Positions 2,138 through 57,354 of a stretch of DNA of 64,000 nt are shown one piece after another. Under the pieces are notes generated by a model, which did not search any database, had not been told where the DNA came from, and saw only the letters and a program-made list of their open reading frames with translations. Positions within the stretch are counted from its first letter, which is position 1. Every line of letters starts with the position of its first letter. The translations under genes and the position numbers were made by a program. Source of the DNA: Azolla caroliniana (taxonomy: Eukaryota; Plantae; Polypodiophyta); NCBI GenBank assembly GCA_043228905.1, contig JBHGNT010000016.1, forward strand, positions 15,872,001 to 15,936,000, written 5' to 3'.

Positions 2138-2809
2138 TGTCGTGCCTTTCGGCTCCGGATCGTTTGCGTGAGTCGGGTGGGAACCACCGGGGTTTTGGAC
2201 TAGGAGAAAAGAAAAAGACAAATAAGGCTAGTAAAGAATAGGTATAAAGAGTTATAAGATAAGAATCTCGTGAATCCCACGAGTTTAGTATATTTAGTCA
2301 ATATTTAGGTAGTAAGAGAGAATTATTTTAGCAAATTCGTGAATCCCACGAATATTTTAGATTGATTGATCATTATAGAAAAATAATCAACAAAAACTAC
2401 AATGTGCTCCCCATCCTTATATAGTGATGGGAGAGACTAAGCATAGCTACATGTTTTTTTTTTCTAATATGTTCATGCACACTAAATGTGCACGTGATGC
2501 TTTTCTAATCCTTGCTTTTATTTGCTAAATATAGTGCTCATGCACGCTAGATGTGCATGAGTCACTTTTTAGTTGCTTGCGTTTTTCTATTCACGCACTC
2601 TAAAAATGCATGATTTACCTTTTTAATAAAGGTAGGCGTAAATAAAGCAATTATACTTATTAAATCTATTTATAAAACACTAAAGATAAGGTAGCATAAT
2701 GGTAAAGTTGAGGTTTGGCTACGTGGAGGTATAGGGTTCGAATCCTGCCCTATGCACGTGATAAATATCTTGATATATTATTTTTTTTATTTATATGTAA
2801 TTAAATCGG

Positions 2810-4723
2810 TTATATTAGTTTTACTTTTTCACGTAGTGTACGAAATACACTACGACACTCGCCCCCTCCGAACCCGCACATCCTCCGGTATGTGCCGAAG
2901 TTGCCGATGCTCGTTGTCTCCCCTTCATCCTCCGTTTGTCCCGCTATGTCAACTTTGTCTCTCCATTTTGAGTAGACCCATTCTTTCCACCCGAACCATT
3001 GTCGCCATCCGATCCACCATATTCTTTGTTCTCTCTCGTCATATTCTTGGCCCTTGTCATTCGTGGTAGTGTCTTTTACTGGCCTCTTTCTTGTCTTCAT
3101 CAACCTTGACTTTTTTCCGGATCGCTCTTGTCCGATCAACTTTCGGTTTGATCGGCTTCCGATCGGATTCGTATTCGGACGAATCGGAATCGGTTGTTCG
3201 GTTTTGATTGAGTCGGTCTCCTTCCGGCCCGGTTTCGATCTATCGCTTTCGGTTTCGGTTGGCTTTCTTTTCCTCGTTTTCACCAGCCTCGACCGGTCCA
3301 ACCTCCGATTGAGTCGGATTAGCTTCTTTCCGGATCGGTCTCGTCCGATTGGCTTTCGGCTAGGTCGGCTTCCATCCATATTCGCGTTCGGCCAAGTCAG
3401 ACTCGGTCGATCGGTTTTGACCAAGTCGACCCCTTTTCGGGTCGGCTTTCTTTCGGATCGGAATCCCGTCCGGATCACCTTCCATCCAAACCGGCTTCCG
3501 ACTTTACCTTTCTTGCTGCCACCTCCCGTCTCTCCGGTCTCACGTTGGTTCTCGGACACAACTGACGAAGTCTCTAGAATTAGTGGGTAGGAATCCTCGG
3601 TATTATCATCCTCCATTGTTTCACCCATAGCCATATTCTCGGCTATCTCTCCGTCGTATGCATCGACTTCGACCTTTGTTTTCTCTCCGCCACCTTCCGT
3701 CTCTTCGGTCTCACGTTGCCTTTCGAACGCAACCGCCGGAGTCTCTAGAATTAGTCGTGGGGAAGTCTCGATATGGCCATCCGTCGTTGATTCGTCCATA
3801 GCCACCTTCGATTCGATGTCATCTTTCGTGGTGACCTCAATCAAGTCCTCCTTGCTCTCTTTCACTGCATCAATTATGCTTACCCCTTTTTCACCCGATG
3901 TTTGGAACACTTGTATTCTGAAATCTTCTTCTACACTTGGGTTATCGGCCTTATCCTTCGTCGTTGTTCTTTCGCAAGACAAGAGGGTAGCTTGTTTTAC
4001 ACCCTCTTCCGTCGCACCATCATGTTGTATTTCGGCCTTCATATCGGCTCCATCATTTGTCTTCAATCGACCATCCTTCATCGGCCATGTCGTTGACAAG
4101 ATTCTCATCTTCCTCTCATCATGTCTCCGGCATACCCTTTGGACTTCGGCCCAATTTTCGGTAAGACCATTCGTACCGTCATCGTCTTCGAGTTCGATCC
4201 CGATGTCCATCCTTTCTTTTCGATCAATCGATTTTACGAACATTAGGACTTTATCCTCTCCCACCAATCGTTGTTCCCGCTCCGAGAGTCGAGCAAAACG
4301 ATGCTCGAACTCTAGGAATGCTTGTGTTGCACTTCGGTGGGTCTTCTCCGATGCCACCCATTCGTCGAATTCTCGCCGATCTTGTCCCTTCGATCTCTTG
4401 TAATCATATGACTCTCGTAAAGCTTCTTCGAATGACCCCCATGTCGAGTTTTGTTGCCGTATCTTGTGGATTCTCTCTTGTAGCTCATCCGTGGCCACCC
4501 GATTGAAGGATGTCACTTGCAATCCTTCCGGTATCCCACATCGTATCATCTCCGCCTTGTAGTCACGTAGATAGCGTGACACATCATTTCCGTTGAATTG
4601 TCCGTTTCGTTGTACGAGCCGCTTTACTGCCCCCGTGATCTCCGACATCACTCGTTGTTCTTGTAGCATCCGCTCGAACATCATCATCATCGTTATGCTC
4701 ATTGCCTCTTGTTGATTCTCCAT
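2810..4723 (-). CDS. Gag-like protein (~637 aa): capsid-like N-terminus, acidic middle, R/K-rich C-terminus; no pol domains
   Basis: Uninterrupted ORF (track 2810..4744; first ATG 4723) fills the whole internal region; FNGNDVSRYL...TWGSFEEAL resembles retrotransposon gag capsid. Confidence 0.7.
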   Translation of the reverse strand: MENQQEAMSITMMMMFERMLQEQRVMSEITGAVKRLVQRNGQFNGNDVSRYLRDYKAEMIRCGIPEGLQVTSFNRVATDELQERIHKIRQQNSTWGSFEEALRESYDYKRSKGQDRREFDEWVASEKTHRSATQAFLEFEHRFARLSEREQRLVGEDKVLMFVKSIDRKERMDIGIELEDDDGTNGLTENWAEVQRVCRRHDERKMRILSTTWPMKDGRLKTNDGADMKAEIQHDGATEEGVKQATLLSCERTTTKDKADNPSVEEDFRIQVFQTSGEKGVSIIDAVKESKEDLIEVTTKDDIESKVAMDESTTDGHIETSPRLILETPAVAFERQRETEETEGGGEKTKVEVDAYDGEIAENMAMGETMEDDNTEDSYPLILETSSVVSENQRETGETGGGSKKGKVGSRFGWKVIRTGFRSERKPTRKGVDLVKTDRPSLTWPNANMDGSRPSRKPIGRDRSGKKLIRLNRRLDRSRLVKTRKRKPTETESDRSKPGRKETDSIKTEQPIPIRPNTNPIGSRSNRKLIGQERSGKKSRLMKTRKRPVKDTTTNDKGQEYDEREQRIWWIGWRQWFGWKEWVYSKWRDKVDIAGQTEDEGETTSIGNFGTYRRMCGFGGGECRSVFRTLREKVKLI

Positions 4724-4739
4724 CTCCTTGCCACCCGCC

Positions 4740-4757
4740 TTCACGTCGGGTTCACCA
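4740..4757 (-). promoter_or_regulatory. Primer-binding site complementary to the tRNA-Trp 3' end
   Basis: Plus strand reads TTCACGTCGGGTTCACCA, matching the plant tRNA-Trp(CCA) 3' end as recalled, 4 nt from the 5' LTR. Confidence 0.8.
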
Positions 4758-5634
4758 ACTGTGTCGTGCCTTTCAGCTCCGGATCGTTTGCGTGAGTCGG
4801 GTGGGAACCACCGGGGTTTTGGACTAGGAGAAAAGAAAAAGACAAATAAGGCTAGTAAAGAATAGGTATAAAGAGTTATAAGATAAGAATCTCGTGAATC
4901 CCACGAGTTTAGTATATTTAGTCAATATTTAGGTAGTAAGAGAGAATTATTTTAGCAAATTCGTGAATCCCACGAATATTTTAGATTGATTGATCATTAT
5001 AGAAAAATAATCAACAAAAACTACAATGTGCTCCCCATCCTTATATAGTGATGGGAGAGACTAAGCATAGCTACATGTTTTTTTTTTCTAATATGTTCAT
5101 GCACACTAAATGTGCACGTGATGCTTTTCTAATCCTTGCTTTTATTTGCTAAATATAGTGCTCATGCACGCTAGATGTGCATGAGTCACTTTTTAGTTGC
5201 TTGCGTTTTTCTATTCACGCACTCTAAAAATGCATGATTTACCGTTTTAATAAAGGTAGGCGTAAATAAAGCAATTATACTTATTAAATCTATTTATAAA
5301 ACACTAAAGATAAGGTAGCATAATGGTAAAGTTGAGGTTTGGCTACGTGGAGGTATAGGGTTTGAATCCTGCCCTATGCACGTGATAAATATCTTGATAT
5401 ATTATTTTTTTTATTTATATGTAATTAAATCGGTTATATTATTTTTACTTTTTCACGTAGTGTACGAAATACACTACGACAACGTATATGGTGAAGGCGG
5501 CAGAAGTGCGTGAGCGGGAGAGCTACGCCGAAGCGGAAAAGGACGTGAGTTGGCGTGCTACTAGGGAGGAAGAGATACGTGCATTGATAGAAAACAAGAC
5601 ATGGGACCTAGTTTATGCCCCCAAGGGTGTAAAG

Positions 5635-8600
5635 TGTCAGTAATAGTACTAAAACAGAGAAAGAATTAGTACTAGAGAAGGGAAGTACTATTAGTACTAA
5701 GAGGACTGACTACGTAAGTATCACGAGAGACGAAGAGAGAAAAGGAGAGAGAGAGAGAGAGGATGATGATAACAGGTCATATATAATGTGAAGAGTAAAT
5801 ACAAAATAGCTATGAGGCTTAAGACTAGCATTGAACCAATTTGGTTCGAAATAATGCCTAGTGCCTCCTTTTATAGTGTTCTCAGGAGTAGTCCTGAAGC
5901 TTCTAGAAAGTTTCAGAGAAATCTGGAATATACATTAATTTTCTATAGTAAAACTTAAATGAAAATAATATCCTACGTATTACAATAGATAGTGTTCATG
6001 ACACTATCCCCCCTTAAAACGACGAGTGTTACGAGTCGGCGTTGATTGGGGACCAAGTTTGTCCGGATACTATCGGTGGAAATCAATAAGAAGATCCAGA
6101 GCATTGGCGACATGCTTGACGGGTTCCCAAGTACATTCGCTCAGACTATAGCCGAGCCAATCAACCAAGTAATAAAGTTTGTTGTGAACAAACTTGGAGT
6201 CGAGGACGGCAGCAACATCATACTCCGGCGGCGATGGTGTAACACAATTGGGAATAGTCAATAAGGTTCGAGAAGAGAACTATGGAAAACCGGATTTATC
6301 TGAAGGTGTGGAGGAAGATCAAGGCGGAACGTGATATCATTAATCTTGTCAGTAATACGAAAAGGATTGAGTCGTCGATAATCCAATTTGTCGCATGGTC
6401 GAGTAGTCTTGATGTGACGACGTAAGAGCCATACTCGATCTCTAATAGCAAAATAGGAGGGAAGCCGATGACGATCTGAATATGTCTTCTGTGTGTGTTG
6501 AGCATGAAGAAGATGAGTAGATAGATCCGTCTGAATCTTGCGTAGCCTCTCCAAATTATCCTTGGCACGAGGATTGGTAGGTAGCTCCGGAGTGTCGATC
6601 ATAGACCAGCGAGGATGAGAACCGGTATAAGAATAAAATGGGGAGACCCAAGTGGAGAAATGAATAGCGTTATTATAAGCAAACTCAACAAAGTGGAGAA
6701 TATCAACCCAAACGTCCTATTGATAACTCAGAAAACACCGAAGATATTGTTCTAGTGTTTGGTTTGTTCGTTCCACTTGCCCATCAGTTTGGGGATGATA
6801 GTCGGAGGAGAGGTTGCAAGAGACCTTGAGCATCTTGAAGAGATGCTTCCAAAATTTGGAGACAAATTGAGGTCCTCGGTCACTGATGATACTGTTTGGG
6901 AGGCCATGATGCCGAAAAACCTCACACATGACAAGGGTGGCGGTTTCCTCACTAGTGATGGCCTTAATACAAGGCACAAAATGTGCCATCTTAGTATATC
7001 GGTCAACGGCGGTTAAGATAGCATCGAAGTCCTTCGAGACTAAAAGATCTGTGATAAAATCAAGACATTGCCACGACTTACATGGAATTGGTAAGGATTC
7101 CAACAAGCCATATGGATGATGTCGTGGTATCTTTGCTCAGCAACAAGCATCACAAGTCCGAACATAGTCGTCGACAAAACGTTGTATATGGGGCCACCAA
7201 AAAGATCTTCGAACTAGATCCAATGTCTTAGTACTACCGAAATGTCCAGTTTTATGGGTGTCATGACAATTTTGGATGATTTGAAGCCAATATGAGCAAT
7301 CGGGAACATACACGAGCTTTATAAAGAATAATAAACCATCATGATATTCGAATTGTCAGTAGTCCATACCTAGTTGTTGAGACTGGGAACAGGATGCTCG
7401 AGAGGCATCAATTTGCGATAGAATGGCTTGAGCAAAACTGTCCGTCTTCAAATTGGCACGTATGGCATTGATAATCCGGGAATCCAATGGAGTGTGAAAA
7501 AACCGCGTTGTGTGCAAACGTGTTGGTCCCAACATTACCTGCTTTTGATTATCAAACGCTAGATCACCAAGACGAGGTGCAAGATATGAGCGCCGTGATA
7601 GTGCATCTGCTTTTCCTTGTTGCTTCCCCAGCCGATATGTGATTTTGAAGTCAAAACGCATGAGGAATTGAGCCCACCAATCTTGTCGTTGATTTAGTAC
7701 ACGAGCATTCTGGAAATAAGCAAGATTTTTGTGATCACTGAAGACAATGACCTAATGAGGAGAGCCCTCTAAGAAGTGCCACCATTGCACAAACAAATCC
7801 ACGATGTCTAATAACTCCTTGTCATGTATCTCGTAGTTGATTTCCGCGGCATCAAATTTGCGCGAGTGGAAAGCCACAGGATGTAACTCTTGTTTATCTC
7901 CTTGTTGTGAAAGGATGCTACCGAGGGCGAAATCTGATGCGTCGGCCTCCCTGATGAATGGTTTGTTTTTATCCACATGAGCTAGAATAGGAGCTGATGT
8001 AAAGGCTTTCTAAGATGCATAAAAGCCATGTCCGCTTCATTGGACCTAAGAAATGACTATGCCTTCTTGATACACTGTGTGAGAGGCAAAATAATCTTCG
8101 AGTAATCTTGTATAAACTTGCGGTAGAAGTTAGCGAAGCCTAGGAAACATTGCACATCTTGTAACGAATGTGGAGTTTGCCACTCTAGCACAGTTTTGAC
8201 TTTAGCTGGATCCATGGAGATGCATTTTGAGGAGATGATGTAGCCTAGAAATTCCACTTGCAATCAAAGCTACATTTTTCTAGTTTTGCATAAAGACCAT
8301 GCTCTCAGAGTCATTTTAGTACTAATAGTACTTGAGAATCATGCTCTTCCTAGGTCTTCGAATAAATCAATAGATCATCCAGATAGATGATCAAACAGAT
8401 ATCCAAGAGATCTCTAAATAATCATTTGCCATGTGCTGGAAGACTGTAGGTGCATTGGTCAGACCGAATGACATAACGGTATACTCAAAGTGCCCATATC
8501 GGGTGCGAAAAGCGGTCTTCCATTTGTCTCCCGGTCGGATCCGCATGAGGTTATACGCTCCTCGTAAGTCGATTTTTGTAAAAAACTTGGCACCATTTAC

Positions 8601-11145
8601 ACGTTCTAAAAGATTTGATATAAGGGGAAGTGCATACCTATTCCTGATGGTGACATTATTCAAGCCGCGGTAATCAACGACGAGACGAAGGGATCCATCT
8701 TTCTTCTTGACAAAGAAAATGGATGCACTGGTCAGATATTTCGAATGACAAATAAACCCGCTTGCCAAATTCTCCTCTATGTAGGATCGAAGGACTTCCA
8801 ACTCGGTTGGTGTCAAGTTGTAAATCGGTCCCCACGATGGCTCTTTTCCTGGTTGTAAATCGATGGGACAATCATAGGGACGATGATGAGGAAGAGTATT
8901 GGCTTTTACCTTGTCAAATACAGCGGCATAAGGATGATATTTCGCGGGAAGTTGAACTAATAGTGCTGGAAGGATGTACTGATATTGCAAATAGAAACAT
9001 TGACTCTTTGCGTCCTTCTTCGCGTAATTGATGGAGCGAAATGGTCGAAACTCGATGAGTAGATTCTCGAGGTTGTCGACACCGGACTTCTCATGTTCTC
9101 CAATCTATGTTTGGATTATGTAATTCAAACCAAGGTAATCCCAGGACAATGGGATGCTTTGGACTACTAATTATATTAAATGATACCACACACACAAAGC
9201 TATCTAGGACAACCTGAATGGGTTCTGACTCTTCTACGATATTCCCAGAAGCAATGGGACGACCATCAATGACTACTAGAGATGCGGGGCAAGGATTTTT
9301 TCTTAAGGATATCTGAAGTGGGCAAAATTCCGATCCATGAAACAAGAATTGGCTCCGAAATCTAAAAGTGCTAAGACATGTACTAGAGGGGTACTTTTAG
9401 TACTAACCACGACTTGGGCTAAGAACACATTGCTAACTTGGTTAGAGGGAATGGAACCACTAATGGGTTGCACAGATCTAGGGTTGTCCAACCAAACGGC
9501 TCCTATTTTGGATGGACTTAGTTGTTTAACTCTTCCTCTAATTGATTAAGGATTTCAAATTTGTTTGAGATACTTGGGCTATCAGTACTATTAATACTAT
9601 CAGACACTCCTAAGGGAATTGACTTAGGTTTAGTACAGGCTACAATTTGATTTACCTGTCTTCTTGGTCTATGGGGACAGTTGATTGCGATATGCCCCGG
9701 TTCACCCCAATAAAGACATAATCGATTTGCACGTCGTCGTTGCTTTTCTTCTTCCAATAACGGGCCACGTCGACGCATGGTGTCGATTTCCATCGGTGTC
9801 AGAGTATTTGCCTGAGATACATCTTGTGCAAACTATTTAGCTACGACTGAGGCATATGTGGGCTTTGGCCTAGTGCGTGTATTTGTAATTGTCACTCCGA
9901 ACGTCGTTCAAAAAGGCGGTTGTCGCATCGAACTGCTCGACTGATTGCCTCTATGAGAGATTTTGGTTCTTTGGGGAAGGTTAAAAGTAAATCTTTGACG
10001 TTGTTTTGCAGGCTGTAGCGAAATTGCTCTATTAGTGCTTGATCATCCCACGGGATATCTAAGGCGAGTAGACAAAAATCCGCCGCGTAGGCAGAGGCTG
10101 GTTGATCTCCTTGACGCAATCGTCGGATCTTGTTGATCTCCGTCATGATGTTGTCGATATCTCCAAAGCAAGCTTTAAACTCACTAATAAAGTCTTCAAA
10201 GTTATTAAGCAAGGGAGATTGTTTTTCTAAAAGTGGAGCGAACCATGCCAAGGCTGAGTCACTGAGCAATGTGCTTATTAAACCTACTCGGGATGCATCA
10301 GTGGGGTATCGGCAAGGATGCATCATAATGACTAAACGTACCTGATTAAGGAATCCTCTGAATTGTGATCGTGTTCCATTGAATTTCACAGGAAGTCCAA
10401 TCTTGGGTTCTTTATGAAGTCCTTGGGGACTTGATCCCTATTGTTGCAATGCTACGATGGTTGCTTCGAGTTGTTGCGCACGTAACGCTAACTCCCCATG
10501 TTGTTGTTGTGTTTGTTGTTTTTCTAAAGTGATTTGTTGAAGATCCCCTAAAAATCGTTGGTTTTCTTGTTCCAATGCAACGAAATTTTCTTTTAGACAT
10601 TGAAACTCAGAAAAAATGGATTGATATTCTTGGGTGCTAACAGTAGCCATAGTATTGGATAAAGGGGTAAGAGGATGAGGGAAACCGAAAAGAAGACCAG
10701 AGGGAAATTTTGGTTCAAGTGGTCAGGAATAGTACTAAAACAGAGAGAGAATCAGTACTAGAGAATGGAAGTACTATTAGTATTAAGAGGACTGACTGCA
10801 TAAGGCTCACGAGAGACGAAGAGAGAAAAGGAGAGAGAGAGAGAGAGGATGATGATAACAGATGATATACTATGTGAAGAGTAAATACAAAATAGCTATG
10901 AGGCTTAAGACTAGCATTGAACCAATTTGGTTCGAAATAATGCCTTGTGCCTCCTTTTATTGTGTTCTCAAGAGTAGTCCTTAAGCTTCTAGAATGTTCT
11001 AGAGAAATCTGGAATATACATTAATTTTCTATAGTAAAACTTAAATGAAAATAATATTCTATGTATTACAATAAATAGTGTAATGGTCAAGAGCTCAACC
11101 CATATAACATAAGGTCATGGGTTCAAGTCTTGCCATATCATGATA
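5635..11145 (-). mobile_element. Degenerate full-length Ty3/gypsy chromovirus (Tcn1-like); 3' LTR 5635-6003, 5' LTR ~10721-11145
   Basis: Order gag (CLYWGEPGHIAINC), PR (ALLDFGA), RT, RH (EADASDFALG), IN (LDFITDL, HPQTDGQ), chromodomain (YYLVDWLGY..TWEP); PPT 6004-6015; no matching TSD. Confidence 0.92.
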
Positions 11146-11159
11146 GTTTTTAGCATGGG

Positions 11160-34996: not shown

Positions 34997-36993
34997 TGTC
35001 AAGATTCAAACTCTTGACATAACCATGTTGTAATCGAGTGTTATGTGTTAACCACACATCTAACATATAATCATGTATATACTTCCTCACTGTAGGTTTT
35101 AGCTAGCATCATGTGCATAATTTCTCCCTTGTATTATTAACACTTGGCACATGCATGCGTACCTACTGCCTACATGCTCTATTGTATCACATGCGTGCAA
35201 TAGGTATGCATGCCACTCAGTATAAATAGTTGAGTTCACCTTGAAGGAATTCAAGGTGAACAACGCCAGTCATGGACATATCAATCTAGTATTCCCATTT
35301 CGCCCATCCTCTCTCCTTGATCTTCATCTCTATCTTTATGCTCTTGTTCCTCGCGTCATCGCTCCGTCATAGCCTCACCATCCGTGCTCTATCTTAGTCC
35401 GCGCTTGGTGTGTCCATGACAGTTTGTTCACCTTCCAACTAGAAGCATCACCCGTCTTCGTCATCGCCTTTGCTTCTAGAGTTACCATCGTCACCGTACC
35501 ATCATCAACATCGCTTCATTTCCTATCTTCCTCGCCGTTTCTATCTCCTAGTTTCTTCTCATAATTTTCATTGGCTTTTAGTTCTCCTCATCATTGTCTC
35601 TATTTTTTAGTTTCTTTCCCGTTCGTGTTCGTGTTCTAGTTCCCAGTGAGGGCCACATGGTCACTCACGCCTGTTCGTGTTCCAGTTCCCGGTGAGGGCT
35701 GCATGGTCGCTCACGTACATTCATGTTCCAGTTCCCGGTGAGGGCCGCATGGTCGCTCACGCACGTTCGTGTTCCAGTTCCCGGTGAGGGCCACATGGTC
35801 ACTCACGCCCATTCGTGTTCTTGTGCCCGGTGAGGGCCGCATGGTCGCTCACTCACGTTCGTGTTCCAGTCTCCGGTGAGGACCGCACATGGTTGCTCAT
35901 GCCCATTGCGGCTCATGTTCCAGTTCTCGGTGAGAACCTCACATGGTCGCTCACGCCCGTTGGTGTTTGTGTTCCAACTCTCGGCGAGGACCAACATGGT
36001 CTCTCATGCCCGTTGGTGTTCGTGTTCCAGTCTCCAGTGAGGACCACACATGGTCACTCACTCCAACTATTGTTTGTGTTCCAGATCCCGGTGAGGACCG
36101 ACATGGTTCCTCATGCCTGTTGTTGTTCATGTTCTAGTTCCCTGTGAGGACCACACATCGTCGATTACTCTCGTTTGTGTTCCTGTTCCTGGTGAGGGCC
36201 ACATGGTCGCTCACTCGTTTGTGTTCCATTTCTCGGTGAGGACATCATGGTTGCTCACGCCCGTTGGTGTTCGTGTTCCAACTCTCAGCGAGGACCGTTC
36301 CAGTTCCCGACAAGGATGCCCCTTGGTGTTCATGCTCCCCGTGAGGACCGCACATGGTCGCTCACACCCGTTGATATTTGTGTTCTAGTTCTAGGCGAGG
36401 ACCACACATAGTCGCTCATGCCCGTTGGTGTTAAATACCTCGTCTTGTGGAAGGGTTACTCCTTGTCTAGGGTTTACAAAATACTTTGGAGGTGATCTAA
36501 GATTTTCATCAACAATATCCCCTTAAGCCGACAAACAATTTGGGAAGGCATCATTGGAGGGGTGATAATGTCAAGATTCGAACTCTTGACATAACCATGT
36601 TGTAATCGAGTGTTATGTGCTAACCACACATCTAACATATAGTCATGTATATATTTCCTCATTGTAGGTTTTAGCTAGCATCATGTGTATAATTTCTCCC
36701 TTGTATTCTTAACACTTGGCACATGCATGTGTACCTACTGCCTACATGCTCTATTGTATCACATGCGTGCAACAGGTATGCATGCCACTCAGTATAAATA
36801 GTTCAGTTCACCTTGAAGGAATTCAAGGTGAACAACGCCAGTCATGGACATATCAATCTAGTATTCCCATTTCGCCCATCCTCTCTCCTTGATCTTCATC
36901 TCTATCTTTATGCTCTTGTTCCTCGCGTCATCGCTCTATCATAGCCTCATCATTCGTGCTCTATCTTAGTGCGTGCTTGGTGTGTCCATGACA
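34997..36993 (+). mobile_element. Non-coding non-autonomous LTR element (TRIM/LARD-like); LTRs 34997-35421 and 36569-36993
   Basis: 425-bp LTRs, TSD ATGTG, PPT GGAGGGGTGATAA before 36569, self-priming site 35424-35434, no retroelement ORF. Confidence 0.93.
35620..36432. repeat. Minisatellite of ~46-52-bp units (~16 copies)
   Basis: Consensus GTTCGTGTTCCAGTTCCCGGTGAGGGCCGCATGGTCGCTCACGCCC. Confidence 0.9.
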
Positions 36994-37727: not shown

Positions 37728-40700
37728 CGGAAAATGTCATTTGCCATATGTTGAAACACGGTGGGAGCATTTGTGAGCCCAAAAGGCATGACTGTATACT
37801 CGAAATGGCCATACCGAGTGCGAAATGCAGTCTTCCACTCATCTCCCGGTCGAATACAGACAAGATTATATGCACCCCTTAGATTAATCTTGGTAAAATT
37901 GTTTGCCCCACCAATGTGCTCTAAAAGACTAGAAATTAAAGGTAGAGCATACCTATTTCTTATTGTGACTTTATTTAATCCACGATAATCCACGACCAAA
38001 CGACGTGAGCCGTCTTTTTTCTTCATGAAAAAGATAGGAGCACTAGCTAGAGACTTTGAGTGTCGAATAAATCCACTTACAAGATTCTCGCCAATGTATG
38101 CTCGAAGAACCTCAAGCTCCATTGGTGACAGATTGTAGATCGGACCCCATGGTGGCTCTTTTCCTGGTTGTAGATCAATGGGACAATCGTATGGCCGATG
38201 CTTTGGAAGTACACTAGCTTTGACTTTGTAGAAGACATCAGCTTAATCTTGATACTCTTTAGGAATGTAGCCCTTGGACTTCCCTTGAGTGTCACTAGAA
38301 GGTGCAACTGATATGGCAAATAATAATAAATCTTCTTTTGCTCCTTCTTGGCCTAATTGTTGGAGGGTGATGGTTGAAATATGATGGAGAGGAACAACAT
38401 GTTTGGTAGAGGGTGAATTGATAACACTATGTTTTTTAAGGGGAGGATCTTGGGTTCGACCCTTGACTACTATGTTTCCTTTTGAAGGGCACCTAATTTC
38501 TCGTCGTCTCCAATCAATTATTGGGTTGTGTAGCTCGAACCATGGCAAACCAAGGACTATTGGATGCTCAGGGCTACGGATTATATTAAAGGAAACTACA
38601 CATCCTAAATCACCTAAGAGTATGTGTATCGGCTCAGACTCCTCAAATATCTTTCCAGAAGCTATGGGACGACCATCAATCACTTCTACGGAAACTAGGC
38701 AAGGAAGTTTATGCAAGGGTATTTGATGTTTTCGGGCAAAATCTCTATCCATGAAACAAGAATTGGCTCCGGTATCTAAGAGAGCTGGGACATGAAGTTG
38801 ACAACCTGGTGTCCTAACTTGTACTTGGGTTGAGAAAACTCTACTAACATGCTTGGAAGAGATGGAACCCACACTAGGTTGTACAGATCTAGGACTGTCC
38901 AACCAAATGGCTCCGATTTTGGCCTGACTTATTCGTTTGACTCCTCCTCTAATTGGCTTAGGACCTCAAACATATTGGATAGAGTTGGATAACTAGAAAC
39001 ACTAGTGGGCATAGTTTCAACCATGCTAGACTCATTTCTATTATCATAGTTAATGTGATGTACCTGGCGTCGCAGTCTATGCGGGCAGTGAATGGCAATA
39101 TGTCCTGGACCTCCACAATATAAGCATAGTCGATTTGCTCGACAATGTTGTTTCTCTTCATCCGATAGAGGTCCTCGTCGTCGGGTCATATCAATCTCCA
39201 TTGGTGTCGGGCTATCCATTGGTGTTGGTCTACATGCTTGCCGTGGAGTTGGGACAGGGCTATATTGTTGCCTTGGAGATTGTGTCGTCACTGATGCATA
39301 AGTTGGCGTAAATCTTGATCTTGTTTGTTGTTGTTGTCGCTCAGACCGACGCTCAAAAAGCCTAAAGGAAGGTAAGACCTAAATCTTTTACATCTCCACG
39401 GAGGCTCGAATGAAACTACTCCATTAGGGCTTGTTCGTCCCAAGGAATATCACTTGCAATGAGACAAAATTTGGCTGCATACGTTGATGCTGGTTGATCC
39501 CCTTGCCGAAGTGTGCGAATCTTGTTGATTGCCGTTCTTACACTATCTGTGTTTCCAAAGCAAGCCTTAAACTCTTTGATAAATTCTTCAAAGTTGTTGA
39601 GTAGGGGAGAATTTGCTTCTAGCAATGGAGCAAACCATGACAATGTCGTGCTAGTCAATAAAGTGCCCACTAACCCGACTCAAGATGAATCCGTCGGATA
39701 ACGCGTGGAATGCATTTGAATTACCAACCACACTTGATTTATAAAACCCCAAAAATGTGCCCTAGAAACATCGAATTTAGTTGGGAGGCTGATTTTGGGC
39801 TCCTTAAGAACTCCTTGATCGTCGCCTTTTAGTTGTTGTAAAGCTATTATTGCTGACTCTAGTTGTTGAACCCTTTGTGTAAACTCATCGTGTATTTGTT
39901 GCTTCTCTACAAAAACCTTATGTAAATCTTCAAGCAATCGTTGATTCTCTAGGTCTAGTGATGCAATCTTGCTTTTGCGATTCTCCATTTCTATAACAAG
40001 GGTGAGGAATTCTTGTGGGTTGCTAGTAGCCATGGGTACTTACTAGTGTTTGTAGAAGAGGGTAAAGGAGAAAAATTCGAATCAAACTGTCAGAACAAAG
40101 AAAGAGATTAAACGATTGAAGGAAGGTATAAAAGAATAGAAGAAGAGAGAAGAATGGATTGATAAGAGAAGAGTGAGTTTATTAGAATAGAATGATTACA
40201 AGGATGAGTTGGATACAAGGTGGGCTTGGAGCTAAAGACTGGTGTTGATTCGAATTGATTTGAGGATACATGTATGCCCTTATTTATAGGTTCCTATAGA
40301 ATAGCTTAGAGATATCTAGAATGTTCTAGAATGCTCTAGGACATTCTAGAATGATCTAGAGTTTTTACAATAATCAATGTAATATAGAAAGTAGCATTTA
40401 TCTTTTCATATGATAATAAGCTATCTTAATGGTTGAGGTTTTCAACTATGGATTACAAGGTTTGAGGTTCAAGTTCGGGTGATGCCATAATGGTCATGAA
40501 CATGTTCATGACACAGTCTTGGGTTCAAGTCCAGGTGAAGCTAACAATGTAGTCCTCTTGGTAGTTTTGGAAAGCTAACAAACACAAGTGATGTAATGGG
40601 TATGCCTAGCTTTGGGACATACATCACCACCTCAACACTCGACAACATCCCGACATGGCTTGCTTGGGTACTATTGATGGAAAGTGGTGACCAAGTCTAG

Positions 40701-43482: not shown

Positions 43483-43598
43483 CTTCTAGCCCATCCTTCC
43501 TTATCTTTTCACTAGGAAAGAGCTCCATCTATTGTTAATAATCAATGGGAGCATGGGGTAGGACATCTACTTTCCCTTCGAGCATCTGCACCACACTA

Positions 43599-49562: not shown

Positions 49563-52500
49563 TTACTCATCATGGTCGATGTGCCTCCGGATCTCGAAGA
49601 GTCTCCAAAGGGTCCATCGATGGTTGGAATGCTCTGGCTCTAGCTCTTCTAGCCCATCCCTCCTCATCTTCTCGCTTGGAAGTAAGAGCTCCATCTGTGG
49701 ATAATAATCAATGGGAGCATGGGGTATGACAGCCACTTTACCTTCCAGCATCTGCACCACACTACTCATGCTTGGCCGGTTCCTCGGATCGGTTTGCACA
49801 CACAACATGGCTACCTCTACCATCCTCAATGCTTGCTCCCCATCATATATCTTTGCACCACCGATGCCATAGTTCATGAGTCTCTCGTCCACGAGCTCCA
49901 TCACACCCTCATGAGGATCCAACCTCATATCTAGCGTCTTCCTCAATGCCCTCCAATCTCTCACTCTCCTCCCACTCACGATCTCCAGCAACACAATCCC
50001 ATAACTATACACATCACACTTCTCCGTGATGGCCCCGTCTGTTAGCCACTCGGGTGCCAAGTACCCTGGGGTTCCCCTCATTATGGTTACCACTGCACTC
50101 TGTTCATCTCGTACCACTCTCCGGGACATTCCGAAATCCGATATCTTAGGGAAGAAATCGACTCCCAAGAGTATGTTCTGCGGCTTGAGATCCATGTGTA
50201 TGATTCTGTCCTCACATTCTTCATGCAAGTAGGCCAGGCCTTTTGCGGTACCCAGGGCTATAGCAAACCTGCGCCCCCATGACAAGATCAGTGGCTGCTT
50301 TTCGGCCTTAATCTCCTCGGATTCTGGAGTAAAATTGGGCGTTTTACTGAAGATCCAAGCATCCAAAGAGCCGTTTTCCATGTATTCATACACGAGTAGC
50401 TTGTGGGTGGCACCTTCTAGGCAGAAGCCAACCAAGCGAACCAGTTGAAGATGGTGAGTCCGGCCCAGAATTGAGACCTCGGCTATGAACTCTTTATTGC
50501 CCTGTTGACCTCCATCGATGAGTTGCTTCACGGCTATGGGAGTGCCATCCTCCATAGCTCCTCGGAAGACATTGCCAAAACCACCACCCCCCAGTGAGTC
50601 CGAGAAACCACAAGTATATTCGTGCATCTCCTTCCATGTGAATCGTCGGGGCTTCGAGACCAGAAGTGAGTCACCTAGGAGCTCCTTTTCGATCTCATAA
50701 TCTTCTAGTCGTCTGGCTTGTAATCTTCGTCTCCTGTGCACATATCCTCCACCCACGAACATAGCGATGATAAGCACAAAGACACCTAATGATACTCCTA
50801 TTGCGATGGGTTTGGTTAGCAGAGGAGTACTGGGTGAAGAAGTAACTGGGTCCTTCATGAATTTCAAGTATCCTATAAATTCCTTGGTTGCAGAAGCGTT
50901 GAATATGATGGTGGCTATGGGACCCTGGATGAGGAAACAAGAACCATTCAGTTTCGACTCCCAGAATGTGGCCGTGCAAGCGCAGTTGTCCAGACAGTGA
51001 TTTTCCCAGCAGTCTTGGGCCTCGATTCCGGTGTGATCGGGAGGGAGGAATGCATTGGAGAAGTAGCTGGCCCCTGCTATGATTGAACCTCCCAGCAGAT
51101 TAGATCCATGGACACAAGATGAAGGGGACGGTTCTCCATAACCCGCCTTGAACTTGCAGCCTAATTTGGAATTATTGTTGGAATCCTGGAGCTCTAATTC
51201 ATTCGGCCCACCACAATCCGGATTGCAAATTTTCTTCTCTTTGTCACATACACCATAGAATCCGCAGAAGAGAGGCAATTGGCATGGATTTATATGGCTG
51301 CTTTCGGAGAGATTGGCGAATTCTGTCCAAACCGCAGTGCTGGGTAATCTGGTATCATTAATCGTGTACGCGTGAAGGTCTCCATCACTCTCCAGCCTGA
51401 GGAATGTGGCATATGTTATGTTGAAGCCGTCACCGTGAATATCAGCATCCTTGAATATGATGGGCATCGAGCCAATGACGGGCGTCGATTGTTGAGCTCG
51501 CCTTCTGCAGTTCTCTGGCGAGATTTGGTTGTATTTTGAAATTATGTCGGAACTGTATGAGTTTGATTGAAATCTTTATGTCAATGAGATTTTCTAACTA
51601 CTATACATATGTGGAATGTGGCGGGAATTCATTACAAATCCTTAATACTAACCCGTCGATTGTTGATGGAACAATATCCAATTGGAGACTGCTGTGGGGG
51701 TCCGGATACCAGCACAATACTGCTGCATAATCGTAGGAGCGATTCAGTTCTTGTGTATCATTGACAGACCAAACCAGATAAGGATGTCCGTATCCGCCGT
51801 AATCTGTAGTACTATGAGAGGCATTGTTATTGAAGGCTTTGTATTGTATCTTGGTATAGAGTGTTAGGGTCCCGTTCTTGTCGATGGCTAGGGTGTAGAT
51901 GGCAGTTTTGTTGGTAGATTCTGTGGTGGAGGCGGCGGTGAGATTCATCCCAGGCCGAAGGGCTTGCAGCACCATGAGCGTGTCGGTGGGATGATCGTAT
52001 GATTGCCACAGTATCTGCTGTTTCAGAGTAGAGTCGCTAGGACCTGTGGTGTTAGTGAAGAGGACCAGGTTTCCCTCATACGTGATGGTGAGGGATGCAT
52101 TGGTAAAACCGGGAGTATTGGTCTGCCACACGACCGAGCCGTTCCTGTCGTAATCCACGAGCCGTAGATTGCCATTGTCACGGGAGAGGTGGAGGCAGGC
52201 GTTCTCGCCCACAGGGTTGTCGGCATTGGCCGTCCACACGACTTTCCCTTTGTTCGCGTCCTGAGACGCCTTCCCAAAGGCTTTGAAGGCGACGACGGAG
52301 AGGTAGTAGGAAGGGGTGCTGGTGCTGCACAGATCATCCGCGGAGATGACGAAGTAGAGGTCGAAGATGAGAGTGTAGTCGAAAAAAATATGTCCCGACA
52401 AAATGATGGCCGAGCGACCGTGCAGCCTCTCCTGGGTGCTCAACACTTGTACAAGGGATCCATTGTTGCAGGAGCGAATCGTGGATGCGGCGAGGGTAAA

Positions 52501-52755
52501 GTCGCCCAGATCATGGGAGTAGGAGAAGAGGCTGTCGTTGACGTTGGAGGCGGGGAACTGGTAGGGGCCCTCAGCAGCAACGCTAGGAATGGATGTTATT
52601 AATAGTAGAAGAAGTAAAGGCGTGGCCGCCACACAGCAGCAGAAGGAGGAGTAGCCGCCCCTCCTCCTCCAAATGACATGAATTAAGTGTCCTTGCCAAT
52701 CCTTACTGTTATTAGCCAAGCCCTCCATGTGTAATGCTCTCTTTCTCTCTCTCAT
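49563..52755 (-). CDS. G-type (bulb) lectin S-domain receptor-like Ser/Thr kinase (SD2-like); putative intron 51553-51652
   Basis: Hydrophobic signal, VVWTAN, GNLRL/GNLVL, LWQSYDHPTDT, Cys-rich EGF/PAN, TM helix, LGGGGFG, IAVK, IIHMDLKPQN, DFG, GTPGYLAPE; intact only if the intron is spliced. Confidence 0.85.
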
Positions 52756-52781
52756 ATCATAATCACACCCACATGTGCAAT

Positions 52782-52782
52782 G

Positions 52783-52833
<51 letters not shown>
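52782..52833. repeat. (CT)n microsatellite immediately upstream of the kinase
   Basis: Direct reading. Confidence 0.95.
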
Positions 52834-52838
<5 letters not shown>

Positions 52839-53787
52839 CGTGTCTATATAACCCACATGTTTTGAGCTATAAGAAGAACATGGACGACTCTCTTGTGGGT
52901 GTGTCTATATAAACCCACATTTTTTTATTTGTACGAAGATCTTTTGAGTTGTAAGAAGATCGACAACCTCTCTGTCGATATGAATGTTATACGGGGCCAA
53001 CACGTTTCCTTCTCTTTGGGTGCCAAGTACTGAGTTATCACGGGTGTACGTACGCTCCTTCGACGATGATGAGGTAGATCAAGCCAACATATTATTGTCG
53101 TATAGCAAAGTCGTAGTTTGCTTGTGTTTATGATGGTTGACTTTGAGAAATTGTTATTATTGAAAATGTTGACAATGGCACAATGATAGTGAAGCATGAT
53201 GCTTCAACTTTCTAGCTTGGTTCATTGTTCACAAGTTAGGTGGTCTACTCTTCCTACTCTTACAAAACTACCATATACCTAACATTGACTCTGGAAATAG
53301 GCGACGCCTCAAGAAACTTTTGTATTCCTAGTATTGACTTTGATAAAAAGAAGATGCCTTAAAATGCTACCTTTTTTAAGGTTGACCTTGGCAATTATAG
53401 GATATGCCTTAAAAAACTACCCTATCGCGATCATTGACTTTGGAATCCGAGATATCTTTTGCACTTAATGATGATGATACCTTACATATCATACCACTTT
53501 TGGAATTATTACTAAATTCCATGTGCGATTCCATAGAAGCTCTATTTAAAGAAAATATCATCTTTTGTATAAGGAGAATATGGCATTTTACCAACAAATC
53601 AACATTAAATATTACTAACTGGATTTAATAAAATTTAACTAGCCATTTTCCATCGAGTGTTAACATAACGTCTTGAAATTATATATACATTTGGTGTTAA
53701 CACATCTTGAAATTATATATACATTTGGAGATTTTGATATTTGTTCAATTTTGACTGCTATGTAGAGTCAAGATTTGTCACAATCGG

Positions 53788-54640: not shown

Positions 54641-56269
54641 TAGTTCTACCAATGCACCTTTATAGACTTGATGTGATTTTGGTTTTCATGCATCACTATG
54701 TCCAAAACTGAATCAAGGAATCGTGATCAAATGAGTCATGGTCCTATTTCTATAGGCCAAATATGGGTTTTGGGACTAGCCATTCAAGGTCTATCTATTA
54801 GGATTGGGATTGGTGTTGACACTTGTAGTGTCTAGTTGACTACTGTGTGTAGTTAGTTGGTCGATTGTTGTGGAAGCGAGTGAGGATCTTGTCAAGGAAC
54901 AAGCAAACGTAGAGTAAGTGTGAGGTTGTGTGTTTTATATTGCTGCTAGTTATGTTGAAATGCACAGAGAATACACAGAGAAAGACAACCAGTTGGCAAA
55001 GAGAAGATTTTTGTTCATCATTAATTTGTACAAAAAGGAGTACGTCTTATTTATACATTAGTGGGCTTAGCTATAACTCCAAGGTGAGTATTCACACAGA
55101 GTATTCATAGAGAATACAATATTCACACAGAAAGAGAGACCGTTACATAGGTAGTTAGGCTAAAGAGACATTGAATTATTTTGCATCATCTACACAAGGA
55201 GGACTTGTACCTCCTATTAACACAAGAGTGGGCTATTCCCTAACTCCAAGGTGAGTACACAGTTAGACGTACAATGGTCGGGTTGGAGTAGGACCTTTTA
55301 GTCCAATAGAGAGCTCAAGATCAAGATCAAGATGGGAATTAAGGAGAAGACAGACTCAACCATAGTGGTCAAGAACAAGGACACGAAGAAGCCTTAGACT
55401 GAAGGCTTGAGATAAAGGAAACTATGTAGGAGACTAAAGTGGAGTGTTATCCATGGTACAATAGGAACAAGGTGTGAAAAGGATTGTAAAAGACAAGTGC
55501 ATAGGACAAGTGTGAAAGTAGGAAACAAAGCCAAGCACTAACAACCGAGGGAAGTAATTGATTACAAGCAACCGAACACAGAAGCCAAATATCAAGAGGA
55601 AGTAGTTGGAACGCGCCGAGTTAGGTGAAAGCTATATAATCAAGAAGGGGTGAACATAGAAAGGGGAATCAGTAGAGACAGAATATACTAGTTAGGAGCC
55701 CAGAGTGATAGAGCCTAACTCTAGATTTGTATTGAGTGAGTGAGTGCGACAGATGCTACTCGGTCTTTTGTACTATCATTATATTATCTGTTAATAATCA
55801 AATACTTATACTTGTGGGTCAATCTCTGTGTTTGTCTCATTCTAAATCTATCGTTACTTATTGCGGCCCGGTCTGTAAAATGTGATTATGAATAGGTTGT
55901 GGTCATTCTCGAAGTGTCCATTAAAGGGTGTAACAATTTGATCCCTACTTTAGTCTCTTATCACGATTCCTTGACCAAATTACTCAGGAGGAGTAATCAA
56001 AGGTGTTCTCCAGGGGGGAGCAACATAATTTGGCATGCTCGGTTCACGTTGTGAGGTCACAACGAATAACGCGTAGGAGAAACCCTAGTCACCATAACGA
56101 CACCCACCTGTGGCACATGCTCTTGGCTACCGTCATGATGTGCCGAACAAGCAGAATGCATCTCCAATTCAATGCTCACACAACAATCACCACCACCGGC
56201 ACTAGATGCTCAATCGACCACGGGCCCTGACCCCGTTTCGCCTTGTAGCCCCTCTGAAGTCAACCAAGC

Positions 56270-57354
56270 CAAAGAAAACTCCTTGAGATGAGACAAAAAT
56301 TGGCTGCATATGTCGATGCTGGCTGATCACCTTGACGTAGTGTACGAATCTTGGTGATCGTTGTTCTTGCACCATTTGTATCTGCAAAGTTAGCCTTAAA
56401 TTCTTTGACAAATTCCTCAAAGTTATGGAGTAGAGGAGAATTTGTCTCTAATAATGGAGCAAACCATGACAACGCTATGCCAGTCAATAAGGTGCCCACT
56501 AACCCGACTCGAGATGCATTTGTCGGATAACGTCTGGGATTCATTTGAATTACCAACCGCACTTGATTCAAGAAACCTCGGAAATGCGCCCTCGAACGAT
56601 CATCAAATTTAGCGAGGAGGCTCATTTTGGGCTCCTTGATAATTCCTTGACCTTCAACCCTTTGTTGCTGTAAAATTATGATTGTTGGCTCTAGTTGTTG
56701 CACCCGTCCCGTAAACTCCTCTTGTTGTTGTTGCTTCTCCACAGTAACCTTTTGTAGATCTCCAAGAAGACGTTGATTCTCTAATTCAAGAGATGCAAAC
56801 TTGGATTTAAGATTCTCTATTTCAACAACAAGGGTGAGATATTCTTCTGAGTTGATAGCAGCCATGGTTTCGTGATATTTATAGAGGAGGATAAAGGAGA
56901 GAAATTCGAATCAAATTGTCAGAAACACGAGAGAAGATAGACTGACGGAAGAAAGATATAAGAGATCACAAGAAGAGAGGAATGAAAAGATAAGAGAAGA
57001 ATGAATGTATTAAGATGAGAATGGGTACAAGACGAGCGATGCGAGCTTAAGATTGGTGTTGATTCAAATTGATTTGAGAATACATGTATGCCCCTATTTA
57101 TAGGTTCCTATAGACTAGCCTAGAGATTTGTATAATGTTCTAGAATGTTCTAGACCTAGAATATTTTAAGATGTTCTAGGATATTCTAGAATGTTCTTGA
57201 ATGTTCCAAAGTATTTACAATAATCAGTATATTATGAGAAGTAGCTTTTACTATCTTATATGATCATAGGTTATCTTAATGGTTGGGTTCTTGATTATGT
57301 ATTACAAGGTCTTGGGTTCAAGCCCAGGTGAAGCCTTGATGTTTATTCATGACA
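56270..57354 (-). mobile_element. Chromovirus 5' LTR (56917-57354) plus truncated gag
   Basis: gag 56260-56865 resembles 39416-40033; PBS 56903-56914. Confidence 0.88.

What the first reader, a model, noticed from the sequence alone, without database searches (positions are those of the whole stretch)
2685..57335. Four different gypsy-type LTR families carry an antisense tRNA-like Pol III A/B-box module in outer U3
Seen: the Gag-only LTR has TAGCATAATGG (2692) and GGTTCGAATCC (2735). Chromovirus 1 has TAGTGTAATGG (11076) and GGTTCAAGTCT (11120). Chromovirus 2 has TATCTTAATGG and GGTTCAAG (40422/40466; 57272/57315, with stem CTTGGG-TTCAAG-CCCAGG). The non-coding element has minus-strand TAGATGTGTGGTTAGCAC (36634) and AGTTCGAATCT (36584). 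A-to-B spacing is 43-50 nt, as in tRNA genes. In every case the module is antisense to the element and points out of the LTR 5' end, although the LTRs share little other sequence. I saw no such module in the copia LTRs. Known precedents for small-RNA-derived LTRs are Cassandra (5S) and, as I recall, oomycete Ajax (tRNA), both non-autonomous. Inference: a retained Pol III/TFIIIC module acting as an insulator, an antisense RNA source or an integration signal in otherwise Pol II-driven LTRs.
Basis: partly seen in the sequence, partly recalled or inferred. Interest (0 to 1): 0.8.

Follow-up and report, generated by a model that had tools for sequence, protein, structure and literature searches.

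The report
Backward tRNA-gene promoter in retrotransposon ends
A whole branch of plant jumping genes, and separately a second unrelated one, keeps the two promoter boxes of a tRNA gene back to front at the outer edge of its end-repeats while the DNA around them drifts, which likely means these elements recruit RNA polymerase III factors, most plausibly as a portable shield for their own promoter (untested).

Summary
The motifs are at the stated coordinates and are real. A box profile trained only on metagenome relatives ranks five window LTR modules (26.9-33.1 bits) above every one of 200 shuffled windows (maximum 24.2); six copia LTRs score 4.6 or less. All 15 evaluable relatives in one chromovirus clade carry the antisense module 43-44 nt apart just inside the LTR start; 0 of 48 more distant relatives reach the same call. 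The boxes are conserved (0.61-0.84 pairwise identity) while spacer and flanks are near background, and there is no cloverleaf, covariation or shared terminator. Corrections: this is two lineages, not four. Both chromoviruses and the non-coding element share a self-priming Tcn1-like LTR; only the Gag-only element is separate. The non-coding element's module scores at chance level, one LTR has lost it, and the tRNA precedent is Helenus (sense, non-autonomous), not Ajax. Best reading: a tRNA-derived TFIIIC/TFIIIB platform kept by selection as DNA, likely shielding the Pol II promoter. No RNA or occupancy data were available. The scan noted look-alikes in fungal and protist elements, none for this clade. 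New variant of a known kind; interest 0.62.

The parts
2138..2857 (-). Gag-only element, 3' LTR (720 nt, TG..CA; 99.4% identical to the 5' LTR; 4-nt target duplication ACGT)
2692..2745 (+). A box (2692-2702) and B box (2735-2745), 43 nt apart, antisense to the element; B box ends 112 nt from the LTR start; T8 run at 2781-2788
   Evidence: (33.1 bits)
2810..4723 (-). Gag-like ORF (637 aa from the first ATG); N-terminal 200 aa 50-55% identical to DUF4100 Gag-protease ORFs and with a weak capsid-fold match; no pol
4740..4757 (-). tRNA-type primer-binding site of the Gag-only element (Trp isotype label is recalled, not tested)
4762..5481 (-). Gag-only element, 5' LTR
5316..5369 (+). A/B module in the Gag-only 5' LTR; the CpG of the B box has decayed to TpG in this copy
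   Evidence: 30.1 bits
5635..6003 (-). Chromovirus 1 3' LTR, with about 56 nt deleted that remove the B box, the spacer and half of the A box
10710..10718 (-). Chromovirus 1 self-priming site, complementary to 10917-10925, which lies about 30 nt after the TATA-like box (9 nt; 42 of 2000 shuffles reach it)
10720..11145 (-). Chromovirus 1 5' LTR (86% identical to locus L003)
11076..11130 (+). A box (11076-11086) and B box (11120-11130), 44 nt apart, antisense, about 15 nt from the LTR start
   Evidence: 29.0 bits
32240..32342 (-). Chromovirus 2 3' LTR remnant (lower limit approximate) with duplicated LTR start; outer B box at 32308-32318 (+); the A box is lost by truncation
34997..35421 (+). Non-coding element 5' LTR (element 1997 nt, 5-nt target duplication ATGTG, inserted in chromovirus 2 pol); weak module at 35062-35002 on the minus strand
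35424..35434 (+). Self-priming site of the non-coding element, complementary to 35253-35263 after the TATA box (11 nt; 0 of 2000 shuffles)
36569..36993 (+). Non-coding element 3' LTR
36574..36634 (-). Degenerate module: good B box (36584-36574), A box without A14 (36634-36624), 50 nt apart; chance-level score on its own
   Evidence: (14.1 bits)
40074..40085 (-). Chromovirus 2 self-priming site, complementary to 40245-40256 after the TATA box (12 nt; 0 of 2000 shuffles)
40088..40560 (-). Chromovirus 2 5' LTR with duplicated start (upper limit approximate)
40422..40532 (+). A box (40422-40432), inner B box (40466-40476, C61 lost) and duplicated outer B box (40522-40532)
   Evidence: 26.9 bits
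53788..54087 (+).
   Evidence: (21.3 bits)
56917..57354 (-). Chromovirus 2-type 5' LTR (86% identical to loci L001/L002)
57272..57325 (+). A box (57272-57282) and B box (57315-57325), 43 nt apart, antisense, 29 nt from the LTR start
   Evidence: 27.8 bits

Best explanation
One clade of self-priming, Tcn1-like chromoviruses and, separately, a Gag-only element keep tRNA-gene A and B boxes back to front at the outer end of U3, and these boxes likely bind TFIIIC (with TFIIIB on the AT-rich tract just inside) as a DNA platform that would shield the element's own Pol II promoter from flanking silent chromatin. Shown: position, orientation, 43-44 nt spacing, presence in every evaluable clade member, conservation limited to the boxes and the short stretch before the B box, a TATA box and self-priming start about 150-250 nt further in. 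Inferred: capture of a tRNA gene or tRNA-derived SINE head into an ancestral LTR, once in the chromovirus clade and once more (or by exchange) in the Gag-only lineage; selection on the master elements; TFIIIC binding; barrier or nucleosome-clearing action on the 5' LTR, by analogy with yeast tDNA barriers. The module cannot make the genomic RNA because it faces the wrong way. Any Pol III transcript would be short, of variable length and a by-product.
For: 15 of 15 evaluable loci in the clade carry it (12 called automatically at <=3 mismatches, L004 and L005 read by eye, the sister L029 at 4 mismatches); 0 of 48 evaluable outside loci reach <=3 mismatches. Pairwise identity among 9 families: A box 0.61, positions 44-48 0.84, B box 0.77, against spacer 0.38, upstream 0.40 and downstream 0.32 (composition expectation 0.26-0.35). 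Best-kept columns are T8, A14, T16, G18, G19 and G53-C61. Variant places in contigs of four runs: Gag-only 1 of 21 box positions vs 8 of 24 spacer positions (p 0.019), non-coding element 0 of 22 vs 7 of 39 (p 0.035). No stem pairing above column shuffles and no RNAalifold consensus, so the constraint looks like DNA sequence, not RNA fold. The 60 nt before the A box are 80-81% AT against 63% inside the module, where TFIIIB would land; yeast tDNA barriers need intact A and B boxes (PMC7990762, passages).
Against: No RNA, ChIP or chromatin data (one search lists no RNA holder). The most conserved block (positions 44-48) lies outside the textbook B box, and near-fixed spacing is tighter than TFIIIC is thought to need (my knowledge); both would also fit pairing with host tRNA. 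AT-rich U3 is common: one copia LTR here is also AT-rich at its start. Single copies lose the module or its CpG and most other chromoviruses do without it. The non-coding lineage has a degenerate A box and 48-50 nt spacing. In one search, 45 variant rows were hidden, and laying needs 80% likeness, so that test is soft. All module-bearing loci come from one run of ENA accession numbers, probably one host group, so host and element lineage are confounded. Barrier action of tRNA genes was read only for yeast (and stated for humans); I saw no plant evidence.
Confidence: 0.5

Rival explanations
1. The module works as RNA: in the genomic RNA, U3 carries the complement of tRNA D-arm and variable-loop/T-arm sequence and would pair with host tRNAs or tRNA fragments, to aid packaging, dimer formation or strand transfer (as in the Ty3 bipartite primer site), or to soak up tRNA fragments.
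For: Ty3 U3 pairs with the T and D arms of its primer tRNA (PMC5371799, passages). An 18-nt run (positions 44-61) is conserved and includes bases outside the B box. The position just after the PPT matches the Ty3 layout.
Against: The chromoviruses and the non-coding element have no tRNA primer site; they show 9-12 nt self-priming complements. In the Gag-only element the module's T-stem and 3' part do not match the primer spelled by its own PBS. Positions 63-77 are at background (0.32), so no tRNA 3' end could prime there.
Confidence: 0.15
2. The module is an active Pol III gene and its antisense RNA is what is selected: copy-number control, a small-RNA source or decoy from the 3' LTR into the integrase/chromodomain end, or a transcript running out into the flank.
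For: Intact boxes, AT-rich upstream tract, and a T4 or longer run inside the LTR in Gag-only, L004, L005, L008, L009/L015 and L012/L044. Two families (L001, L003) have no T4 for 1037 and 541 nt.
Against: No shared terminator, length or fold. Lack of T4 on the antisense strand is not beyond synonymous-codon shuffles in 8 of 8 testable loci (lowest P 0.054).
Confidence: 0.15
3. A neutral relic: a tRNA or SINE piece once landed in an ancestral LTR and is simply carried along; its conservation is partly owed to lying next to the LTR end.
For: Individual copies decay or delete it. In some families the B box is only 5-15 nt from the integrase-bound LTR end.
Against: Integrases of module-bearing families are only about 50-65% identical to the window's chromovirus 2, and spacer and flanks have drifted to near background while the boxes have not. 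The distance to the LTR end varies from 5 to 112 nt while the A-to-B spacing does not.
Confidence: 0.1
4. An integration signal: the module is a mobile landing pad for Pol III-seeking elements, or tethers the element's cDNA to TFIIIC sites.
For: Ty3-type targeting of Pol III start sites is known (search listing). Earlier scan notes report such pile-ups in gut-fungus LTRs (unchecked).
Against: The LTR pairs compared are colinear across the tract in front of the A box, with no insertion. These elements carry an aromatic-cage chromodomain, which points to chromatin-mark targeting. No genome was held for a real test.
Confidence: 0.08
5. Chance matches to short degenerate patterns in AT-rich LTRs.
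For: True of the non-coding element taken alone (14.1 bits) and of the B-box-like word at the transcript start, which is really the self-primer.
Against: Blind profile test, 15 of 15 vs 0 of 48, fixed strand and place.
Confidence: 0.02

Closest known systems
Helenus TRIMs (TRIMp3; Kojima 2024, PMC10886601; parts 1-4 of 6, passages and supplement search hits read)
   Same: tRNA-derived sequence inside LTRs, with conservation centred on boxes A and B and no working tRNA; one plant family is known (Selaginella Helenus-1_SMo).
   Different: Helenus are 311-1263 nt, non-coding and tRNA-primed. In the four Helenus LTR sequences shown in the supplement hits the boxes read on the LTR's own strand, so Pol III could make the element's RNA. 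Here the boxes are antisense, at the outer U3 edge, in 2-6 kb elements that include coding chromoviruses with a TATA box and self-priming. The paper notes in passing that 'not a few' Repbase LTRs resemble part of a tRNA but analysed only TRIMs.
Cassandra and Ajax (5S-derived TRIMs; as described in PMC10886601)
   Same: Pol III internal promoter captured in an LTR.
   Different: 5S type (A, IE, C boxes), non-autonomous, and used (Cassandra) or proposed (Ajax) to transcribe the element itself.
Tcn1 chromovirus clade of non-seed plants (Neumann et al. 2019, PMC6317226; passages read)
   Same: Chromodomain with aromatic cage, no tRNA primer site, self-priming.
   Different: No LTR A/B-box module is mentioned in the passages read; 48 more distant chromoviruses here lack it. 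Placement in Tcn1 proper was not tested against reference sequences.
Phygy non-chromoviruses and TR-GAG elements (PMC6317226 and PMC13570524, passages read)
   Same: The Gag-only element has a 4-nt NCGN target duplication (ACGT), a tRNA primer site and Gag without pol.
   Different: It has no RT, so it cannot be placed on the tree; no LTR Pol III module is described in the passages read.
Ty3 bipartite primer-binding site (PMC5371799; passages read)
   Same: U3 sequence complementary to tRNA T and D arms, just after the PPT.
   Different: In Ty3 it matches the primer tRNA. Here most carriers use no tRNA primer, and the one that does has a module that does not match its primer.
tDNA and TFIIIC chromatin barriers of yeast (PMC7990762; passages read)
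   Same: A and B boxes plus an AT-rich upstream tract, placed between flanking chromatin and a Pol II promoter.
   Different: Those are fixed host loci with shown function. This one would be carried by the mobile element itself, and its function is untested.

Membership tests
Type 2 (tRNA-type) Pol III internal promoter | A box and B box with the invariant tRNA bases | tested here: met
   T8 10/10, A14 9/10, G18 9/10, G19 9/10, G53/T54/T55 10/10, C56 9/10, A58 9/10, C61 9/10 in 10 families; not met for A14 in the non-coding element
Type 2 (tRNA-type) Pol III internal promoter | tRNA-like A-to-B spacing | tested here: met
   43-44 nt in all 15 clade loci and 6 window copies; 48-50 nt in the non-coding lineage
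Type 2 (tRNA-type) Pol III internal promoter | AT-rich upstream tract for TFIIIB | tested here: inconclusive
   80-81% AT in the 60 nt before the A box, but AT-rich U3 is common
Type 2 (tRNA-type) Pol III internal promoter | Oligo-T terminator close downstream | tested here: inconclusive
   T4 within 11-51 nt of the B box start in 12 of the 18 modules; 99-1037 nt away in the other 6
Type 2 (tRNA-type) Pol III internal promoter | TFIIIC/TFIIIB/Pol III occupancy and transcription | not testable with these tools
   no run on record as RNA holds the stretch
tRNA gene | Cloverleaf fold, called by ARAGORN or Rfam | tested here: not met
   no call; no pairing above shuffles, no consensus structure
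Helenus (TRIMp3) | tRNA-derived boxes inside the LTR | tested here: met
Helenus (TRIMp3) | Short (about 0.3-1.3 kb) non-coding TRIM | tested here: not met
   elements of 2.0 kb (non-coding), 3.3 kb (Gag) and 5.5 kb or more (gag-pol-chromo)
Helenus (TRIMp3) | Promoter oriented so that Pol III can make the element's RNA | tested here: not met
   antisense in every carrier; sense in the Helenus LTRs seen
Helenus (TRIMp3) | tRNA primer-binding site | tested here: not met
   self-priming in three of the four window elements; only the Gag-only element has a tRNA site
Tcn1 chromovirus clade | Chromodomain with aromatic cage | tested here: met
   Pfam Chromo 1.8e-12; Y, W, Y at the cage positions, read by eye from recalled positions
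Tcn1 chromovirus clade | No tRNA PBS; self-priming complement | tested here: met
   9, 11 and 12 nt complements about 30 nt after the TATA box; 5-6 nt in the four tRNA-primed or copia controls
Tcn1 chromovirus clade | RT-RH-IN phylogeny with reference Tcn1 elements | not tested
   no named reference sequences were available; the tree has unnamed rows only
Phygy non-chromovirus | 4-nt NCGN target duplication | tested here: met
   ACGT on both sides
Phygy non-chromovirus | RT phylogeny | not testable with these tools
   the element has no pol
Ty3-type bipartite PBS | U3 segments complementary to the element's own primer tRNA | tested here: not met
   no tRNA primer in the chromovirus clade; mismatch with the PBS-defined primer end in the Gag-only element

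The most novel reading that the evidence does not exclude
Autonomous LTR retrotransposons carry their own portable tRNA-gene-type chromatin barrier. Two unrelated Ty3/gypsy lineages in one plant host have each fixed an outward-facing TFIIIC/TFIIIB platform at the LTR edge that lets them stay expressible when they land in silent chromatin: an anti-silencing device built from Pol III machinery.
Probability: 0.35. Interest if true: 0.85.

Novelty: new variant of a known kind. Interest (0 to 1): 0.62.

Why it matters
Small-RNA-derived LTR promoters have been described as the engine of tiny non-autonomous elements, and the Helenus paper argues that their autonomous partners must use Pol II LTRs. 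Here coding, Pol II-type elements keep a Pol III promoter signature that cannot make their own RNA, across about ten families, so it must do something else. If it is a barrier, it answers how chromodomain elements that aim at heterochromatin stay active there, and it gives plants a small, testable, mobile insulator that is also spread around the genome as solo LTRs. It also warns that such LTRs can inflate Pol III site and pseudo-tRNA annotation.

Tried and rejected
No whole genome is held, so no genome-wide copy, SINE-source, tRNA-isotype or nesting analysis was possible. ARAGORN at default found nothing; relaxed to 80% it calls some modules but 77 'genes' in all, so it is uninformative. Rfam found no tRNA in the window, in a 261-nt stretch or in 9 loci. 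The viral contig scan found no relative. The sequencing-run search gave no RNA holder, which is no evidence either way; all 6 distinct runs laid were contigs. Cloverleaf: D 25/40, anticodon 21/50, T 24/40 and acceptor 30/70 pairs, none above column shuffles (fractions 0.61, 0.37, 0.74, 0.063). A long antisense read-through into integrase was rejected. A second, inverted primer site was rejected because positions 63-77 are not conserved. The sense-strand B-box-like word at the transcript start (10923, 5837) is the self-priming sequence, not a promoter. My idea that the non-coding element's longer spacing comes from a 6-nt insertion in the T stem was dropped after seeing the related copy in L012. 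The Gag model had no structure match at E <= 0.001; the top 12 rows are all Arc, Ty3, PNMA2 or copia capsids. Rows dropped: of 80 loci, 17 had no detectable LTR start or too little downstream DNA and were not scored (L004 and L005 were recovered by eye); L042 and the Chr1 fragment were under 110 aa and left out of the tree; the profile used 8 loci, one per family, and the identity table those 8 plus L029.

Full report
What the window is. The 64 kb are a nest of plant LTR retrotransposons around a lectin receptor kinase gene. No genome is held. The element types suggest a non-seed land plant; that is inference. The four elements of the finding are: a 3.3-kb Gag-only element (LTRs 2138-2857 and 4762-5481, minus strand); chromovirus 1 (5635-11145, minus); chromovirus 2 (32342 to about 40560, minus, with further LTR copies at 53788 and 56917-57354); and a 2.0-kb non-coding element inside chromovirus 2 (LTRs 34997-35421 and 36569-36993, plus).

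The observation. With fixed tRNA box patterns the strict setting gives 3 hits against 0.13 expected (maximum 1 in 60 shuffles); the loose settings are not significant. For a blind test I fetched 80 metagenome loci with an integrase-chromodomain alignment and built the box profile from 8 of them, one per family, with no window sequence. It ranks the window modules first: 33.1 and 30.1 bits (both Gag-only LTRs), 29.0 (chromovirus 1), 27.8 and 26.9 (chromovirus 2), then 21.3 (an unlisted copy at 53831). The best score in 200 shuffled windows was 24.2. The two chromoviruses have close kin in the training set, so the Gag-only result is the truly independent one. Six copia LTRs score 4.6 or less. 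The non-coding element scores 14.1 and 11.1, which is chance level; its B box is good but its A box lacks A14 and lies 50 nt away. The 3' LTR of chromovirus 1 has the module deleted, and two 5' LTRs have lost the B-box CpG.

How far it reaches. On a maximum-likelihood tree of 80 rows, all module-bearing chromoviruses fall in one clade (18 rows at 99/91 support, plus the long-branch sister L029 at 98/78). Of its loci, 15 have enough DNA after the PPT and all 15 carry the module, antisense, 43-44 nt apart, 15-51 nt from the LTR start: 12 were called at 3 or fewer mismatches, L004 and L005 were read by eye (L005 is degenerate), and L029 has 4 mismatches. Three clade loci were too short. Outside the clade 0 of 48 evaluable loci reach 3 mismatches; two reach 4, at other spacings. 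The carriers make about ten families, most of them 47-66% identical to chromovirus 2 over this protein stretch. All come from one run of ENA accession numbers, so probably one host group; coded runs of several organism labels hold the same LTRs.

Two lineages, not four. Chromovirus 1 is the L003 family and chromovirus 2 the L001 family (86% LTR identity each), both in that clade. Both, and the non-coding element, lack a tRNA primer site. Instead the bases after the 5' LTR are complementary to a site about 30 nt after the TATA-like box: 9, 12 and 11 nt (42, 0 and 0 of 2000 shuffles), against 5-6 nt in four control LTRs. They also share the motif that follows this site. This is the self-priming design that Neumann et al. 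give for Tcn1 (PMC6317226, passages). It fixes the U3/R border, so the module is in outer U3 and a Pol II-type start lies further in. The non-coding element is therefore a derivative of the same clade, which is the main reason to accept its weak module as homologous. The Gag-only element is different: tRNA primer site, 4-nt ACGT target duplication (the NCGN preference of Phygy), and a Gag whose first 200 residues match DUF4100 Gag-protease ORFs at 50-55% and fold weakly like Arc/Ty3 capsids (no match at E <= 0.001). Whether its module is a second capture or an exchange cannot be told; outside the boxes it is at background identity to the chromovirus modules.

What is conserved. Ten modules align over 73 columns with a single gap each in six rows, in tRNA register. 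Among 9 chromovirus families, mean pairwise identity is 0.61 in the A box, 0.61 in the five bases after it, 0.84 at positions 44-48 and 0.77 in the B box, against 0.38 in the spacer, 0.40 upstream and 0.32 downstream, with composition expectations of 0.26-0.35. Among copies, variant places in contigs avoid the boxes: 1 of 21 against 8 of 24 for the Gag-only LTR (45 weaker rows hidden) and 0 of 22 against 7 of 39 for the non-coding LTR, although loose ends there show that other subfamilies differ across the A box. RNA structure is not conserved: no stem beats column shuffles, RNAalifold gives no pair, and ARAGORN and Rfam call no tRNA. A terminator is close in 12 of 18 modules and far in 6, and there is no sign of protected read-through into integrase. 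The 60 nt before the A box are 80-81% AT.

How it most likely works. Selection has kept promoter bases and spacing, not a fold or a product, and the orientation rules out making the genomic RNA. The simplest reading is a TFIIIC site with a TFIIIB landing tract, placed between the flank and the Pol II promoter of the 5' LTR. In yeast such complexes are nucleosome-free and act as heterochromatin barriers that depend on the A and B boxes (PMC7990762, passages). For elements with an aromatic-cage chromodomain, a built-in barrier would be useful. Binding and barrier action are inferred, not shown (0.5). The main rival is RNA pairing with host tRNA, as in the Ty3 bipartite primer site (PMC5371799, passages; a similar claim for HIV-1 U3-R is recalled, not read). 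It would explain the conserved positions 44-48, but most carriers use no tRNA primer and the one that does has a non-matching module (0.15). A functional antisense RNA (0.15), a neutral relic (0.1), a landing pad (0.08) and chance (0.02) follow.

Relation to what is known. tRNA-derived boxes in LTRs are known from Helenus, and 5S-derived ones from Cassandra and Ajax (PMC10886601, parts 1-4 of 6 read). Those are short non-coding elements, and the Helenus LTRs seen in the supplement hits, including the Selaginella family, have the boxes on the sense strand. This finding fails three Helenus tests (size and coding, orientation, primer). The same paper says that 'not a few' Repbase LTRs resemble part of a tRNA but did not analyse the long ones, so unpublished overlap is possible. 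I found no description of this module in ten library searches; four papers from them were read as passages, the rest as listings only, and most subscription journals are not covered. Earlier scan notes describe antisense tRNA-like pieces in fungal and protist gypsy elements, mostly judged passengers, and none for this clade; they are unchecked and are not used as support.

Verdict. New variant of a known kind; interest 0.62.

Noticed in passing
window 32255-32342 and 40466-40560: Both LTRs of chromovirus 2 have a tandem duplication of the first 50 nt or so of the LTR, which gives a second B box 56 nt further out; in the 5' LTR the outer copy is perfect and the inner one has lost C61.
   Followed up: partly
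window 11069-11141; L003 3055-3127: In the chromovirus 1 family the module folds as one long hairpin (z -3.9 and -4.5), not a cloverleaf; this is not shared by the other five modules folded.
   Followed up: partly
modules, tRNA positions 44-48: The five bases before the T stem are the best-conserved block (0.84 identity) although they lie outside the textbook B box; unexplained.
   Followed up: partly
L012 2404-2468: An LTR end related to the non-coding element is inserted, reversed, in the integrase of another clade member; its module has about 48-nt spacing and the same A14-less A box.
   Followed up: partly
window 35581-36432: The interior of the non-coding element is mostly 46-54 nt tandem repeats; origin not studied.
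   Followed up: no
window 2810-4723: The Gag-only ORF keeps a capsid-like N-terminus but replaces the zinc-knuckle/protease half by an acidic then basic low-complexity tail; an 82% identical open relative (P0122) exists, so the fusion is a family trait.
   Followed up: partly
window 27172-28962: A young array of 410-481 nt units with 71-nt subrepeats, 98-100% identical.
   Followed up: no
window 49563-52866: B-lectin plus kinase domains on the minus strand (receptor-kinase-like gene), with related pieces at 42426-42678 and 62728-63363; a copia element (43598-48966) interrupts the region.
   Followed up: no
window 12783-13345 and 30894-31414: Two inverted copies (78%) of an unidentified 550-nt repeat; no A/B module.
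   Followed up: partly
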